A stretch of DNA of 43,862 bases from a virus (IMGVR_UViG_2541047828_000009:1-43862); one strand, 5' to 3'; shown: positions 14,630 to 19,471, numbered from the stretch's first letter. The notes: generated by a model not told the origin, from the sequence alone. Program-made: numbers and translations.

Positions 14630-14763
14630 CATTTGAATCCTGTTTTTCCGATCACCTCCGCGTTCGCTGGCAGCGGCTTCGCTTATACCACTTTCCCGGC
14701 TCTGTGCTAACGGACTACCGGATACTGAAGAACTACATCAAAACCATAGGCGGTGCAGTATGA
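14626..14763 (+). CDS. Small ORF (45 aa) translationally coupled between rusA and the Q-like gene
   Basis: ATGA overlaps at both ends (rusA stop/start and start of the next gene); [23 protein letters not shown]...; below the track cutoff. Confidence 0.35.
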
Positions 14764-15449
14764 ATACTCAATTTCTCGAATACGTGCGCCAGCAGTTGAT
14801 GGTGGCCACCGCCGATTTAAGTGGTGCGACGAAAGGGCAGTTGATGGCGTGGCTTGAAAACGCGCAGTTCGATACGGGAACGTTTAAACGTAAAAAGCCT
14901 CGAGTGCTGGATGAAGTGACCGGGGAAATGATTACGCTGGATAACCCGCCAATACCGGGCAAGCAGTCGCATACCAAGGGTTCGCATATTCCCCTGGTGC
15001 AGCCGGTTGAATACTCCAGCGCATCGTGGCGCCGCGCACTGATGTCACTCGAAGAACACCAGAAAGCGTGGCTGCTATGGAACTATAGCGAGAACGTGCG
15101 CTGGTGCTATCAGGTGGAAATCACTCAATGGGCGTGGGCAGAGTTCCGGGAGCAGCTCGGCGCGAAGAAGGTGGCCGGCAAAACGATGGAGCGCCTGAAG
15201 AAGCTTGTCTGGCTCGCGGCTCAGGACGTGAAAGCAGAGCTGGCAGGGCGTGAGACGTACGAATATCAGGCGCTGGCGTCGCTGGTTGGCGTAACGCCAA
15301 AAAACTGGTCAGAGACCTTTACTGACCGCTGGGTTGAGATGCGCAGCATCTTCCTGCGACTGGATAGCGGGGCTTTATTGCAGGTTACGCGATCACGTTC
15401 ACAACAAAAGGCGACAAATTTAGACTCAAGTCTTGCAAAACTGGATTGA
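14760..15449 (+). CDS. Putative late-gene antiterminator (Q-like)
   Basis: Position between rusA and the late promoter/lysis cassette; sequence not confidently matched to a Q family. Confidence 0.5.
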   Translation: MNTQFLEYVRQQLMVATADLSGATKGQLMAWLENAQFDTGTFKRKKPRVLDEVTGEMITLDNPPIPGKQSHTKGSHIPLVQPVEYSSASWRRALMSLEEHQKAWLLWNYSENVRWCYQVEITQWAWAEFREQLGAKKVAGKTMERLKKLVWLAAQDVKAELAGRETYEYQALASLVGVTPKNWSETFTDRWVEMRSIFLRLDSGALLQVTRSRSQQKATNLDSSLAKLD

Positions 15450-15718: not shown

Positions 15719-16036
15719 ATGGCAAAGCGTATGAATGACGACCACAAAATTGTAGGCCTGTCCTGGTTAGTCCTGCTCGGCATTGCATGCTGGGGCGGTT
15801 TAGTTCGCTACCTGATCGACGTAAAGCAGAATAAAGCGACATGGAGCTGGATAAACGCGCTGGCACAGATCGCTGTCTCCGGCTTTACCGGTTTGATTGG
15901 CGGGTTGATAAGCGTGGAGAGTGGGTTGAGTTTTCACATGATCCTTGTCACGTCCGGCATTAGCGGGGCGATGGGTTCAGTGGCTCTGACCTATTTCTGG
16001 GAACGCTTGACGGGGATGAAGAATGCAAACCAGTGA
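15719..16036 (+). CDS. Holin (three predicted transmembrane segments)
   Basis: ATG 15719 with GGAGGTG RBS; hydrophobic stretches IVGLSWLVLLGIACWGGLV, WINALAQIAVSGFTGLIGGLI, FHMILVTSGISGAMGSVALTYF; immediately precedes and overlaps the lysozyme gene. Confidence 0.7.
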   Translation: MAKRMNDDHKIVGLSWLVLLGIACWGGLVRYLIDVKQNKATWSWINALAQIAVSGFTGLIGGLISVESGLSFHMILVTSGISGAMGSVALTYFWERLTGMKNANQ

Positions 16037-16463
16037 TAAAGGCATTGCCCTGATCAAAGAGTTCGAAGGTTGCAAGCTCACTGCCTATCAGGACAGCGTC
16101 GGCGTTTGGACGATCGGTTATGGCTGGACTCAGCCCGTCGACGGGAAACCAATCCGTGCCGGGATGACAATTAAGCAGGAAACGGCAGAACGCCTGCTGA
16201 AGACAGGAATGGTCAGTTACGAAAGTGACGTGTCACGACTGGTTAAAGTTGGCCTGACTCAGGGGCAATTCGATGCCCTGGTGTCGTTCACGTATAACCT
16301 CGGTGCGCGGTCATTGTCGACATCGACTCTCCTGCGAAAACTCAACGCCGGAGATTACGCTGGTGCAGCCGATGAGTTCCTGCGCTGGAATAAAGCTGGT
16401 GGGAAGGTGCTGAATGGGCTGACACGTCGGCGGGAGGCAGAGCGAGCTCTGTTCCTGTCATGA
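16023..16463 (+). CDS. Endolysin, phage lysozyme (P22 gp19-like)
   Basis: [30 protein letters not shown] ... [11 protein letters not shown] matches P22-type lysozyme as recalled. Confidence 0.9.
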
Positions 16464-16962: not shown

Positions 16963-17367
16963 ATGCAAATAGATCAAGAATACCTTAAAGGTTTGCTCGA
17001 GGCTTTCGAGGCATCGGATTCACCTGATACCGATATTATTCGATTAAAGGATTTAGGGTTCAATTGTGAAACTGACACATTTGTGTTTCATATGCGTTTG
17101 CTTGAGGATAGAGGGCTGATTATCAGGAGTGATGGAGAGCCCGGCTTTGGTGCTATTCAGTCTTTAGACGGAATGACTCACTGGGCTGTAATGCCCTTGC
17201 GATTGACCGCGATGGGGCATGACTTCTTGGATGCTCTCCGTAACAAAGAGGTTTGGGCAACATTAAAAACCGGATTCAAAGATGCCAGTATGGGCACGCT
17301 GATGACAGTTTCGAAGGAGCTGTTTAACCGAGCTCTAGCTAAGCAACTTAATAAAATGTTCGACTAA
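16963..17367 (+). CDS. Hypothetical moron protein (134 aa)
   Basis: AT-rich codon usage; own terminator downstream; sits between the lysis cassette and terminase. Confidence 0.6.
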   Translation: MQIDQEYLKGLLEAFEASDSPDTDIIRLKDLGFNCETDTFVFHMRLLEDRGLIIRSDGEPGFGAIQSLDGMTHWAVMPLRLTAMGHDFLDALRNKEVWATLKTGFKDASMGTLMTVSKELFNRALAKQLNKMFD

Positions 17368-17388: not shown

Positions 17389-17443
17389 TTGTCAACTTTA
17401 TGAGCAAACTGATCTTAATTACTGTAACTAGGTGGTCAATGAT

Positions 17444-18082
17444 ATGGCAACGCTTAAGGACCTTTCCAGTCAGTTAAGACAGCTGCAGAAGCAAATACCG
17501 TTTGCGACTGCCCAGGCTATGACTAAAGTGGTTCGCCAGATAGAAGCGGCCCAAAAAACAGCATTTGAGCGGAATCTGGATAATCCAACACCTTTTACAG
17601 TTAAATCGGTTGGGTCAGTTGGTGCCAGGAAAAACAGCCTTCGTGCGAAGGTGTTTGTTCGTGATACTGCTGCTGGTTACCTTGAACCCTTCGAGTTCGG
17701 CGGAGAGCACAAGCTTAATGGTAGTGCTTTGCTTAACCCGAAAGACATAAAGCTTAATAAATACGGCAACCTGCCGCGTAATAAGCTCTCTCAGCTCAAA
17801 GCAAAGGAAAATGTATTCGTAGGTGAGGTGGATGGCGTTAACGCTGTCTGGCAGCGTAAGAAACCGATGAAAGCTAAGAAGCGACGGGCCAAGCGCTCCG
17901 CTAATGGGACGCGAAGACCGAAACGTAAACAGCGTTCTCCAAAGCTTTTGATCCGGTTTGGTGATGCGCTACCTGTGACTCCAGTGCTGGGGTATATGGA
18001 TAGGGCCCGTACCATGGCGAACGCACTGCTACCGTCTGCTTTAAATCAGGCGATAGCAGAAGCCATCAGGACGGCAAAATAA
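17444..18082 (+). CDS. Hypothetical protein with a Lys/Arg-rich tract
   Basis: ATG 17444 with AGGTGG RBS; basic stretch KKPMKAKKRRAKRSANGTRRPKRKQRSPK. Confidence 0.55.
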   Translation: MATLKDLSSQLRQLQKQIPFATAQAMTKVVRQIEAAQKTAFERNLDNPTPFTVKSVGSVGARKNSLRAKVFVRDTAAGYLEPFEFGGEHKLNGSALLNPKDIKLNKYGNLPRNKLSQLKAKENVFVGEVDGVNAVWQRKKPMKAKKRRAKRSANGTRRPKRKQRSPKLLIRFGDALPVTPVLGYMDRARTMANALLPSALNQAIAEAIRTAK

Positions 18083-18092
18083 AAGCAGTAAC

Positions 18093-18596
18093 TTATAAGT
18101 TAATTTCGCAAGCTTTTATGAAGCTGTTTACTGCAGTTGTCGATCCAGAAACATTGGCTGACATGGAATGCTGGTTTCCGCCATCCTTTGTTTGCACACC
18201 AACTAACACTTTGGATTTCGCCCCCTGAAGCTGCTTAAGCACTGTTTTTAGTTGGTCCGCGTCATCCGATTGAATCTGGAGGCTCTGAACATTACGTCTT
18301 GAAAGGGTAGCATCGAGCTTCACTGCGGTATTCCCGTCGACCTTCATTATCAGGTCCATTGGTACCTCTGATAGTGATTCGGTGCTTTTATCCATTTCAA
18401 CGTATGCCGCCGATAGCTTTTCTTTAGTGCAGTCAAACACAATGGCGCCATTGTCGGATGAAACCTCGCCAAGCATCATTGCTTTCTTACCACCAGAGAA
18501 AAGGTCATCTTCAGTATTAGTTACCCACTGGGCATGAGCAATTGGTGATGCCAGCACTGCGGCTACGAAAGTTATTTTGATTATATTGTTACCCAT
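18093..18596 (-). CDS. Secreted/periplasmic moron protein (167 aa) in the bor-equivalent position
   Basis: ATG 18596 with AAGGAGAA RBS; signal peptide MGNNIIKITFVAAVLASPIAHA then QW; antisense to the flanking late genes. Confidence 0.6.
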   Translation of the reverse strand: MGNNIIKITFVAAVLASPIAHAQWVTNTEDDLFSGGKKAMMLGEVSSDNGAIVFDCTKEKLSAAYVEMDKSTESLSEVPMDLIMKVDGNTAVKLDATLSRRNVQSLQIQSDDADQLKTVLKQLQGAKSKVLVGVQTKDGGNQHSMSANVSGSTTAVNSFIKACEINL

Positions 18597-18740
18597 TACA
18601 TTCTCCTTGTATTGAATAGGAATAATCATAGTCGGAGCGAATGGTCGAAGCCATTAAAAAAATGGGTCCTTCCTGAGACTTTTGTAAGGTACGGGCATTG
18701 CGCGCCGCAGTGTTTTCCTAGCTACAAATTTTCAAATTTA

Positions 18741-18889
18741 GGTAACAGGTAACAGTTACGTTTTGTTACGTTTTGAGCTTTGTTCTTGATTGCAAAAATA
18801 TTCCTCTCAGCTGGTTGTTACCCTCGATGTTACCTCTTCTGGTTGGGTAACAGTGTCAGGTAACAGATCAGACTGCAGGTGAGGTAACA
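18741..18889. repeat. GGTAACA(G) repeat array upstream of the terminase small subunit (putative cosB/pac-type binding sites)
   Basis: At least seven direct or inverted copies (ggtaacaggtaacag, gttacg twice, tgttaccc, tgttacct, gggtaacag, aggtaacag, aggtaaca abutting the ATG). Confidence 0.6.
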
Positions 18890-19471
18890 ATGAACCAGTC
18901 AGATTTCGCACGGTTACATGGCGTTAGCCGCAAGACCGTTACGATGTGGAAAAGCCGGGGATGGCTGATCATGTCCGGCGATGATATCGATGTTGCCGCT
19001 TCAAATGCACAACTCGAAAAGTACAGGAAAAGCGTTAACCGACCCGATAAACAGAAAACGTCTGCGCCAGAAAAAAAGAAAGCTGACCGGCTGTTGCCTG
19101 CGCGGGAGCCGCCGGAAGAAAGTAACTCGTCACTGGAGGGGCTTGCGCGGGATTTCCTCCTTGAAAACGGCGCTGAGTTATCGCTGGATGAAGCGCGCCG
19201 GGTAAAGGAAAACTACCTGGCGTTACTGACAAAATTAGAGTTTCAGCAAAAAGATGGCCAACTCATTGAGATGGCTGCCGCCGAGGAGGTTCTTTTCAAC
19301 GCCTTTCGCCAACAGCGTGACGCCTGGCTTAACTGGCCGTCAAGAGTGGCACCATTAATGGCTGCTGATCTGGGCGTGCCGGCGGACAGGATGACAGAGG
19401 TGCTGATTGAACATGTCCACAAACATATCTCAGTCCTCGGAGAACCAGAATTTAACCCAGCAGAAGATTGA
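18890..19471 (+). CDS. Terminase small subunit (Nu1-like)
   Basis: N-terminal HTH NQSDFARLHGVSRKTVTMWKSRGWL comparable to lambda Nu1; directly precedes the large subunit. Confidence 0.75.
   Translation: MNQSDFARLHGVSRKTVTMWKSRGWLIMSGDDIDVAASNAQLEKYRKSVNRPDKQKTSAPEKKKADRLLPAREPPEESNSSLEGLARDFLLENGAELSLDEARRVKENYLALLTKLEFQQKDGQLIEMAAAEEVLFNAFRQQRDAWLNWPSRVAPLMAADLGVPADRMTEVLIEHVHKHISVLGEPEFNPAED

What the first reader, a model, noticed from the sequence alone, without database searches (positions are those of the whole stretch)
18093..18596. Antisense secreted protein in the position where lambda carries bor
A minus-strand gene with a good RBS and a canonical signal peptide (cleavage after AHA) sits between the late-strand moron and terminase. 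Lambda bor occupies this position and orientation. This is a likely lysogenic-conversion or envelope-modifying factor, possibly an exclusion protein.
Basis: partly seen in the sequence, partly recalled or inferred. Interest (0 to 1): 0.5.

Follow-up and report, generated by a model that had tools for sequence, protein, structure and literature searches.

The report
Exported-protein moron beside the phage cos site
A prophage of E. coli carries, just inside the right end of its packaged DNA and pointing against the late genes, a small add-on gene for an exported periplasmic protein of unknown function; it is an ordinary kind of prophage "moron", sits where lambda carries bor, but is unrelated to Bor.

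Summary
Window 18093-18596 (-) is a real, selected gene of 167 aa. It has an AAGGAG ribosome-binding site and a Sec-type signal peptide (..SPIAHA|QW..), and lies between a late-strand gene and the small terminase gene. NCBI annotates the same CDS as "hypothetical".

It is the coding part of a ~580-bp cassette (18083-18662). That cassette is missing from an otherwise collinear E. coli prophage and from phage phiNP. Its G+C is lower than that of its neighbours. It carries a conserved candidate promoter.

It abuts the cos site. The 12-nt cohesive end GCATTGCGCGCC lies at 18695-18706, so this is the last gene of the virion DNA. That matches lambda bor in position and orientation.

The best reading is a prophage-expressed, soluble periplasmic binding protein that benefits the lysogen. 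Superinfection exclusion is the leading but untested guess. This is a new member of a known kind, of modest interest.

The parts
18093..18596 (-). CDS of 167 aa: exported protein of an unnamed family (phrog_19473). The mature part of about 145 aa has invariant Cys56 and Cys163.
   Evidence: ORF and translation. Same CDS in RefSeq. phrog_19473, E 1.6e-99. dN/dS 0.07-0.16. AlphaFold model with pLDDT 85 and pTM 0.78.
18531..18596 (-). Codons of the signal peptide (residues 1-22, predicted cleavage AHA|QW)
   Evidence: Sequence. Residues 1-20 have pLDDT below 50 in the model. Family-wide signal-peptide features. Rule-based prediction only; not tested experimentally.
18603..18608 (-). Ribosome-binding site AAGGAG, 6 nt before the ATG
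   Evidence: conserved as AAGGAG or AAGGGG in 26 distinct upstream sequences.
18625..18630 (-). Candidate -10 hexamer TATGAT
   Evidence: Conserved as TATGAT, TATCAT, TATATT or TAAGAT at a fixed distance from the ATG in 26 distinct upstream sequences. ACTATGATTATT also precedes the chromosomal Leminorella copy. The consensus scan did not call it because the -35 is weak. Inference.
18649..18654 (-). Candidate -35 hexamer ATGGCT (18-nt spacer), preceded by a T-run
   Evidence: The block AT(G/A)GC is conserved across divergent loci while its flanks vary. It matches TTGACA at only 3 of 6 positions. Inference.
18083..18662 (.). The insertion cassette: gene plus 66 nt upstream and 10 nt downstream. 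It is present here and absent from collinear relatives.
   Evidence: Alignment with the E. coli ES2 prophage and phage phiNP, which go from the 216-aa gene straight to TGGGTCCTTCC and cos. G+C is 43.4%, against 52-55% in the lysis and terminase genes.
18663..18673 (+). TGGGTCCTTCC: element 22-32 nt inside the right DNA end, invariant in 26 of the 27 distinct upstream sequences aligned (cosQ-like by position)
   Evidence: Invariant in those alignments and present at the right end of BZS1 virion DNA. The cosQ role is inferred from position only.
18695..18706 (+). cosN cohesive-end sequence GCATTGCGCGCC
   Evidence: Identical to the 12-nt 5' overhang annotated as cosL in Serratia phage vB_SspM_BZS1. 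That end was determined with PhageTerm and by sequencing of ends. It occurs once in the window.
18741..18888 (.). Seven GGTAAC/GTTACC repeats between cosN and the terS start (cosB-like binding sites for the small terminase)
   Evidence: 7 of the window's 42 matches fall in these 148 bp. The repeats are shared with BZS1 and phiNP. They are replaced by GGGACA repeats in a Citrobacter prophage with a different TerS. The role is inferred.
17432..18082 (+). Convergent neighbour: a conserved 216-aa late-strand gene (phrog_1924; RefSeq starts it at 17444)
18890..19471 (+). Small terminase subunit gene, divergent from the target across cos
   Evidence: phrog_57, E 1.6e-32. 44% identical to BZS1 Nu1-like TerS.

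Best explanation
The feature is a moron: a self-contained cassette of about 580 bp (18083-18662) inserted between the last late-strand gene and the cos site of a lambdoid-head, Mu-like-tail prophage.

It encodes a 167-aa precursor. The Sec pathway exports it, and signal peptidase I cleaves it after Ala22. This releases a soluble periplasmic protein of about 145 aa, probably with one disulfide (Cys56-Cys163). It has an IalB-like beta-rich fold and no recognisable catalytic motif.

The gene points against Q-dependent late transcription and has its own conserved candidate sigma-70 promoter, which sits within the 98 nt between the ATG and the DNA end. It is therefore most likely expressed from the repressed prophage and damped by converging late transcription after induction, as lambda bor is.

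It most likely works by binding a component of the cell envelope rather than by catalysis, and so benefits the lysogen. My single best guess for that benefit is interference with superinfecting phages at the periplasmic or DNA-entry step.

Status of each step:
- Shown: the gene, selection on it, the insertion polymorphism, the adjacency to cos, the signal-peptide features and the fold resemblance.
- Inferred: export, the disulfide, the promoter, lysogen expression and binding as the mode of action.
- Speculative (about 0.3): exclusion as the phenotype.
For: Gene reality: same CDS in RefSeq; dN/dS 0.07-0.16; exact protein on at least 1000 contigs.

Moron anatomy: the cassette is absent from the collinear E. 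coli ES2 prophage and from phiNP, and BZS1 has other small ORFs in the slot. G+C is 43-45% against 52-55% in the flanks. The same gene is found in three other slots: after com-mom at the end of Mu-like prophages; between the tape-measure and DNA-circularisation genes; and in non-phage chromosomal sites. The protein is 99-100% identical across E. coli, Enterobacter, Kluyvera and Citrobacter, while the neighbouring TerS is 59% identical in most of the loci that carry the 98-100%-identical protein.

Own promoter: conserved ATGGCT-N18-TATGAT plus RBS in 26 distinct upstream sequences, and the -10 block is also upstream of the chromosomal Leminorella copy.

Bor-like logic: lambda bor has the same position and orientation. 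Morons are by definition expressed from repressed prophages and often encode envelope proteins that exclude phages or help the host (PMC3594210).
Against: There are no expression, localisation or phenotype data.

The consensus promoter scan found no sigma-70 site upstream on the minus strand, and the candidate -35 is weak.

No terminator follows the gene, so one textbook moron feature is missing.

In Mu-like and tail-module contexts the gene is co-oriented with late genes, in two loci (L007, L082) only 30-46 nt after the tape-measure gene. There it could be expressed late in lytic growth.

Distant relatives are ordinary chromosomal genes: between recA and alaS, and next to redox-enzyme genes in Acidiphilium. 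This argues for a general envelope function rather than a phage-specific one.

No model of a known defence or exclusion protein matches. No isolated phage genome among the 50,697 INPHARED records carries a homologue.
Confidence: 0.5

Rival explanations
1. It is a host-interaction or virulence-type conversion factor. The exported protein reaches the cell surface or medium and alters adhesion, invasion or serum survival of the lysogen, as reported for Bartonella IalB and lambda Bor.
Against: There is no sequence-level link to IalB. None of the 88 members reaches PF06776, profile searches of the PDB miss 3dtd, and a search from the most divergent members recovers no IalB-annotated protein. There is no similarity to Bor and no lipobox. 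Carriers include isolates from river water, frogs, chickens and food. Relatives occur in free-living Acidiphilium.
Confidence: 0.15
2. It is a general periplasmic housekeeping or stress protein (for example a chaperone-like or envelope-maintenance factor) captured from a bacterial chromosome. It raises lysogen fitness without acting on phages or animal hosts.
For: The family is broad: 270 cluster representatives, mostly ~165 aa with a signal peptide. Distant members sit in core chromosomal contexts: recA-alaS; between a molybdopterin oxidoreductase gene and an AhpC-type redoxin gene; after copC-copD-yebY. Tandem-repeat versions exist.
Against: The enterobacterial clade is overwhelmingly phage-borne and keeps one slot next to cos over 60-100% protein identity. 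That suggests selection tied to the phage. No neighbour is consistently linked in the chromosomal contexts.
Confidence: 0.2
3. It is a lytic-cycle accessory protein acting in the periplasm late in infection, for example modulating lysis timing or shielding progeny from adsorbing to debris, rather than a lysogen-expressed gene.
For: In Mu-like prophages it follows com-mom on the late strand. In Dryocola-type and other tail modules it follows the tape-measure gene on the same strand, with gaps as short as 30-46 nt. In the window it lies close to the lysis cassette.
Against: In the dominant context (at least 50 of 58 viral contigs) it is antisense to the late operon. Q-antiterminated late transcription would therefore oppose its expression. 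It is dispensable in collinear phages, and the lysis cassettes upstream vary freely.
Confidence: 0.1
4. It is a member of the lambda Bor/Iss family of outer-membrane lipoproteins and confers serum resistance.
For: Only the shared position and orientation between the lysis genes and cos.
Against: No lipobox; Bor has LITGC. BLASTP finds no alignment at E <= 100, and hhalign gives probability 13% over the signal peptide only. There is no Bor Pfam hit. The proteins differ in size (167 vs 97 aa) and the model has a different fold class.
Confidence: 0.01

Closest known systems
Lambda bor (Bor/Iss outer-membrane lipoprotein, a lysogenic-conversion gene)
   Same: A small exported-protein gene on the strand opposite the late operon, in the interval between the Rz/Rz1 lysis genes and the right cos end. 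It is an accessory gene that is not needed for phage growth (PMC3594210).
   Different: No sequence or profile similarity. Bor is a 97-aa lipoprotein with a lipobox, whereas this is a 167-aa precursor with a signal-peptidase-I site and no lipobox. Here two late-strand genes separate it from Rz, and it directly abuts cos (98 nt from the DNA end).
Phage morons as defined for HK97/HK022 (for example HK97 gene 15, a superinfection-exclusion moron in the tail operon)
   Same: A single-gene addition absent from collinear relatives, with deviating G+C, its own candidate promoter, an envelope-targeted product and bacterial chromosomal homologues. Relatives of this gene also occupy a tail-operon slot next to the tape-measure gene (PMC3594210).
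   Different: gp15 is a small inner-membrane protein of the YebO family, whereas this is a soluble periplasmic beta-rich protein. No terminator was found here. No exclusion phenotype has been tested.
IalB (invasion-associated locus B, Pfam PF06776; PDB 3DTD)
   Different: 13% identity. The Pfam model is not matched by the window protein or by any of the 88 aligned relatives. Foldseek does not recover it. IalB is a chromosomal gene family of Alphaproteobacteria, not phage-borne.
Serratia phage vB_SspM_BZS1 and Citrobacter phage phiNP (closest sequenced phages for this genome segment)
   Same: The same cos overhang GCATTGCGCGCC and flanks, GGTAAC repeats, a homologous TerS (44%) and a homologue of the 216-aa gene (71%) just before cos.
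   Different: Neither carries the target gene. phiNP has an empty slot and BZS1 has two unrelated small + strand ORFs.

Membership tests
Lambda Bor/Iss lipoprotein family | Lipoprotein signal peptide with a lipobox (L-x-G/A-C) | tested here: not met
   The target has ..SPIAHA|QW.. and no Cys before residue 56. Bor has LITGC. Only 2 of 88 family members give a lipobox-like match.
Lambda Bor/Iss lipoprotein family | Sequence homology to Bor | tested here: not met
   BLASTP finds no alignment at E <= 100. hhalign gives probability 13%, over the signal peptide only. There is no Bor Pfam hit.
Lambda Bor/Iss lipoprotein family | Position between the lysis genes and cos, opposite to late transcription | tested here: met
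   Lambda annotation compared with the window layout.
Lambda Bor/Iss lipoprotein family | Expressed in the lysogen and confers serum resistance | not testable with these tools
   Needs expression and serum-killing assays.
Phage moron (Juhala et al. 2000, as summarised in PMC3594210) | Extra DNA relative to otherwise collinear related phages | tested here: met
   18083-18662 is absent from the E. coli ES2 prophage and from phiNP.
Phage moron (Juhala et al. 2000, as summarised in PMC3594210) | [quoted passage not shown] | tested here: met
   The cassette is 43.4% and the CDS 44.6% G+C. TerS/TerL are 52-55%, the lysis genes about 55%, and the window mean is 51%. The adjacent DUF2513 gene and the cos region are also low.
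Phage moron (Juhala et al. 2000, as summarised in PMC3594210) | Own promoter | tested here: inconclusive
   ATGGCT-N18-TATGAT is conserved in 26 distinct upstream sequences. The consensus scan does not call it, and there are no transcript data.
Phage moron (Juhala et al. 2000, as summarised in PMC3594210) | Own terminator | tested here: not met
   Only 10 nt separate the two convergent stop codons. No hairpin with a U-run lies downstream.
Phage moron (Juhala et al. 2000, as summarised in PMC3594210) | Expression from the repressed prophage | not testable with these tools
   Needs RNA-seq, 5'-RACE or a reporter fusion in a lysogen.
IalB family (PF06776) | Match to the family HMM above the gathering score | tested here: not met
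   The window protein and the 88 aligned relatives give no hit. One other relative, P0066, scores 18.7 bits (E 0.002) against a cut-off of 22.1. No IalB-annotated protein was reached from divergent members.
IalB family (PF06776) | Same fold as the solved IalB structure (3DTD) | tested here: met
Sec / signal-peptidase-I exported proteins | n-, h- and c-regions with small residues at -3 and -1 | tested here: met
   K7; hydrophobic core with best 10-residue KD mean 2.37; A-H-A at -3..-1. This is a rule-based check, not a trained predictor, and export itself was not tested.
Known anti-phage defence or exclusion proteins (PADLOC models) | Match to a model of a described system | tested here: not met
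   The only hit is a chance-level one (E 0.007, 13 bits, to a Type I specificity subunit).

The most novel reading that the evidence does not exclude
The protein founds an undescribed family of soluble periplasmic phage-exclusion (or envelope-protection) factors with an IalB-like fold. It is placed deliberately at the extreme right cos end. By analogy with lambda (my knowledge, not tested here), that end is packaged last and injected first. A host-type promoter 40-70 bp from the DNA end could then make this the first gene expressed from the entering genome as well as from the prophage. If true, it would also give the first mechanistic handle on the IalB fold.
Probability: 0.12. Interest if true: 0.6.

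Novelty: new member of a known kind. Interest (0 to 1): 0.3.

Why it matters
It adds one more uncharacterised but widespread cargo gene to the list of prophage morons of Enterobacteriaceae. The exact protein is on at least 1000 public contigs. Matches to the 1.5-kb stretch around it occur in 57 of 5426 complete E. coli genomes, 22 of them covering at least 80% of the stretch.

The family has no Pfam model, no name and no tested member. Its only structural relative, IalB, is itself mechanistically unexplained. A simple phenotype screen could therefore annotate a whole family at once.

The by-product is practical. The cos site of this prophage group is now placed in the window, which fixes the ends and gene order of the packaged genome.

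Tried and rejected
Searches that found nothing useful:
- Pfam, NCBIfam and PADLOC scans of the protein gave only chance-level hits: DUF7767 at E 0.03, SigF at 0.015, a Type I specificity subunit at 0.007.
- Pfam on 88 relatives: no family was matched by more than one member.
- INPHARED phage genomes: no megablast hit to the 1.5-kb region and no tblastn hit to the protein.
- Foldseek against the PDB: no match at E <= 0.001, and the top hits (TEAD) have TM 0.25.
- The afdb50 fold library was unavailable.
- BFVD gave only uncharacterised proteins of T4-like phages RB16 and KP15, at TM about 0.5.
- Profile and single-sequence searches of PDB sequences did not reach IalB.
- A database search seeded with the most divergent family members found no IalB-annotated bridge.
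- The search for related loci with the broad alignment failed for lack of a conserved stretch.
- With the narrow alignment it gave only 4 loci among species representatives.
- A literature search for the protein accessions and the PHROG number returned nothing.

Negative results on signals:
- The sigma-70 consensus scan found no promoter on the minus strand upstream of the gene, and no terminator downstream.

Ideas rejected:
- The 178-aa reading from the upstream ATG. It has no RBS, and that ATG lies inside the candidate -10.
- Bor homology.
- A lipoprotein.
- A chance ORF.
- Calling the 216-aa + strand neighbour a moron, since it is conserved across the phage group.

Full report
**What is at the coordinates.** The minus strand carries an ORF at 18093..18596 (167 aa) that begins MGNNIIKITFVAAVLASPIAHAQWVTNTEDD. 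AAGGAG lies 6 nt before the ATG (18608..18603). A longer reading from an ATG at 18629 exists mechanically. It has no ribosome-binding site, and homologues start at the downstream Met. The 1.5-kb stretch 17400-18900 is 100% identical to a prophage of E. coli 20KM2222 (NZ_CP151050.1), where NCBI annotates exactly this CDS as "hypothetical protein" WP_001472855.1. By coordinate conversion from that record's annotation, the window corresponds to the whole prophage, from the integrase next to kch to a recombinase next to yciI.

**Surroundings.** The order on the + strand is:
- Q antiterminator (14760-15449), holin, lysozyme (16023-16463), Rz/Rz1;
- a DUF2513 gene (16963-17367);
- a 216-aa gene (17432-18082; phrog_1924).

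Then comes the target on the minus strand. After it, on the + strand, come the small terminase (18890-19471), the lambda GpA-type large terminase, gpW, portal, head genes and a Mu-like contractile tail.

**The gene is real and under selection.** Pairwise dN/dS against homologues taken from other loci is 0.07-0.16 wherever dS is not saturated. A first search found 33 relatives in Escherichia, Enterobacter, Citrobacter, Salmonella, Klebsiella, Leminorella and Dryocola, all named "hypothetical". An exhaustive profile search found 270 cluster representatives, mostly ~165 aa, with a few tandem-repeat proteins. The exact protein has been seen on at least 1000 contigs.

**Export signals.** The N-terminus has a Lys, a hydrophobic core and A-H-A directly before an invariant Trp. 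Figures for the 88-member family alignment:
- all 88 have a hydrophobic N-terminal core;
- 66 of the 68 anchorable members have small residues at -3/-1 just before the conserved Trp;
- 2 of 88 have a lipobox-like match;
- 87 of 88 have exactly two Cys in the mature part, Cys56 and Cys163 here.

This pattern is what a Sec-exported, DsbA-oxidised soluble periplasmic protein would show. The check is rule-based and not experimental. No trained predictor was available.

At the sequence level there is no family. There is no Pfam, NCBIfam or PADLOC hit for the window protein. None of the 88 aligned relatives matches a shared Pfam family. One other relative, P0066, gives a sub-threshold IalB hit. Profile searches do not reach 3dtd. 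A search from the most divergent members reaches no IalB-annotated protein. PHROGs lists the family as phrog_19473, function unknown. IalB itself is a ~20-kDa signal-peptide protein required for erythrocyte invasion; its location and mechanism are disputed (PMC6299047). The resemblance is therefore a fold-level lead and not a functional assignment.

**Comparison with bor.** Bor is, however, a 97-aa lipoprotein with the lipobox LITGC. BLASTP finds no alignment, and profile comparison aligns only the signal peptides at 13% probability. The target is not a Bor family member.

**The cos site lies next to the gene.** Aligning the target-to-terS spacer from five prophages revealed an invariant block, GGAAAACACTGCGGCGCGCAATGCCCGT ... 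CAGGAAGGACCCATTTTT as read on the minus strand. A sensitive search of phage genomes matched position 1-61 of Serratia phage vB_SspM_BZS1, annotated "cosL". Its 12-nt 5' overhang, GCATTGCGCGCC, was determined with PhageTerm and by sequencing phage ends against the prophage junction (PMC7556043). The identical 12-mer occurs once in the window, at 18695-18706. The BZS1 right end matches window 18656-18694.

Between cosN and the terS start lie seven GGTAAC/GTTACC repeats (18741-18888). BZS1 and phiNP share them, and a Citrobacter prophage with another TerS type has GGGACA repeats instead. They are probably TerS binding sites (inference). The target's ATG is therefore 98 nt from the right end of the packaged DNA. 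It is the last gene of the virion genome and reads inward.

**It is an insertion cassette.**
- Phage phiNP goes from the homologue of the 216-aa gene straight to cos and terS.
- An E. coli prophage in strain ES2 is collinear on both sides but lacks the gene.
- The three-way alignment puts the boundaries at 18083 and 18662. In ES2 the stop codon of the 216-aa gene is followed by 14 nt and then TGGGTCCTTCC.
- BZS1 has two unrelated small ORFs in the slot.
- The cassette is 43.4% G+C, against 52-55% in the lysis and terminase genes.

Among 58 IMG/VR viral contigs that carry a relative, at least 50 have the same layout. The 216-aa gene converges on the target, the cos 12-mer lies 108-153 nt upstream where it is present as an exact match (in most of them), and terS is divergent. 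This holds while the protein diverges from 100% to 60% identity.

The gene also occurs elsewhere:
- co-oriented after com-mom at the end of Mu-like E. coli prophages;
- between the tape-measure and DNA-circularisation genes in other myovirus tail modules;
- in non-phage chromosomal sites in Leminorella, Pantoea and others.

Distant relatives (about 20-30% identity) are core chromosomal genes, for example between recA and alaS, or next to redox-enzyme genes in Acidiphilium. In most of the loci that carry the 98-100%-identical protein, including those from Kluyvera and Citrobacter, the adjacent TerS is only 59% identical. This shows mosaic exchange.

**Transcription signals.** The 66 nt of the cassette upstream of the ATG contain TATGAT (18630..18625). 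It is conserved as TATGAT, TATCAT, TATATT or TAAGAT at a fixed distance from the start in 26 distinct sequences. A conserved AT(G/A)GC block lies 18 nt further up (ATGGCT, 18654..18649) and is preceded by a T-run. The -10 block is also found before the chromosomal Leminorella copy. The consensus scan did not call this promoter because the -35 is weak, so it remains a candidate. No intrinsic terminator follows the gene. The two convergent stop codons are 10 nt apart, and the downstream RNA has no hairpin with a U-run.

**How it most likely works.** The anatomy meets most of the criteria of a moron as summarised in PMC3594210. It is an addition relative to related phages, has deviating G+C, has a promoter of its own (candidate only), and has bacterial homologues outside prophages. 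Its terminator is missing and its expression is untested.

Because it opposes Q-dependent late transcription in its main context, the simplest model is expression from the repressed prophage, with interference from converging late transcripts after induction, as for bor. The product would be exported by Sec, cleaved after Ala22, oxidised, and would act as a soluble periplasmic binding protein. No catalytic motif or enzyme fold is seen.

Which partner it binds is unknown. Among characterised envelope-targeted morons, the common outcomes are superinfection exclusion (HK97 gp15, Cor, SieA) and host-interaction or survival factors (Bor, Lom, SodC). I put exclusion first, at about 0.3. Relatives occupy the tape-measure slot, next to where the HK97 gene-15 exclusion moron sits, and the phage-borne clade is tightly kept by phages. 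The chromosomal relatives and the co-oriented contexts keep a general envelope-fitness role and a late lytic role open.

**Verdict.** This is a new member of a known kind of element, and its protein family is unnamed and unstudied. Interest is modest.

Noticed in passing
window 18663-18889: The cos region of the prophage. The cosN 12-mer GCATTGCGCGCC (18695-18706) is identical to the determined cohesive end of Serratia phage BZS1. An invariant element TGGGTCCTTCC lies 22-32 nt inside the right end. Seven GGTAAC/GTTACC repeats lie before terS. A Citrobacter prophage with a different TerS has GGGACA repeats in the same place, which suggests co-variation of TerS with its binding sites.
   Followed up: yes
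window 17432-18082 (+): The 216-aa gene convergent with the target is labelled 'minor tail protein' in PHROGs (phrog_1924) and has no Pfam hit. It always sits immediately before cos, far from the tail genes. It has a very basic stretch (KKRRAKRSANGTRRPKRKQRSPK). It is 71% identical to BZS1 p72. Its role is unclear and the tail label looks doubtful.
   Followed up: partly
window 16963-17367 (+): A DUF2513 gene between Rz and the 216-aa gene has low G+C (44%), like the target. It may be a second accessory insertion in the lysis-to-cos interval. Other related prophages carry different genes here (HicAB, DUF826, DUF1883, an AraC-type regulator).
   Followed up: no
window 38239-39593 (-): A second antisense unit inside the late region. 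An acyltransferase gene (38239-39330) and a small ORF (39330-39593) lie on the minus strand among the tail-fibre genes. They are a candidate O-antigen-modifying lysogenic-conversion gene of the Oac type.
   Followed up: no
window 1-43862: The window corresponds to a complete prophage inserted between kch and yciI of E. coli 20KM2222. It has an integrase at the left end and a recombinase/invertase at the right end (43314-43862). The early region is Rac-like (RecE/RecT, YdaS/YdaT), the head and terminase are lambda-like, and the contractile tail is Mu-like.
   Followed up: partly
loci L027-L059 compared with window 18093-19471: The target protein is 98-100% identical in about 30 contigs from several genera (Kluyvera, Citrobacter, E. 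coli). In most of them the adjacent TerS is only 59% identical to the window's. A recombination joint therefore lies in or near cos (matches end at window 18739).
   Followed up: partly
proteins P0151, P0177, P0180: Some distant relatives are 474-655-aa proteins made of two to three or more tandem copies of the domain behind one signal peptide. Each copy keeps the Cys pair.
   Followed up: no
loci L009 and L073-L081, upstream of the target homologue: In the Klebsiella-type prophages an extra 28-40 nt is inserted between the cosQ-like element and the candidate promoter. It moves cosN from about 110 nt to about 150 nt upstream and introduces a TTTACA motif.
   Followed up: no
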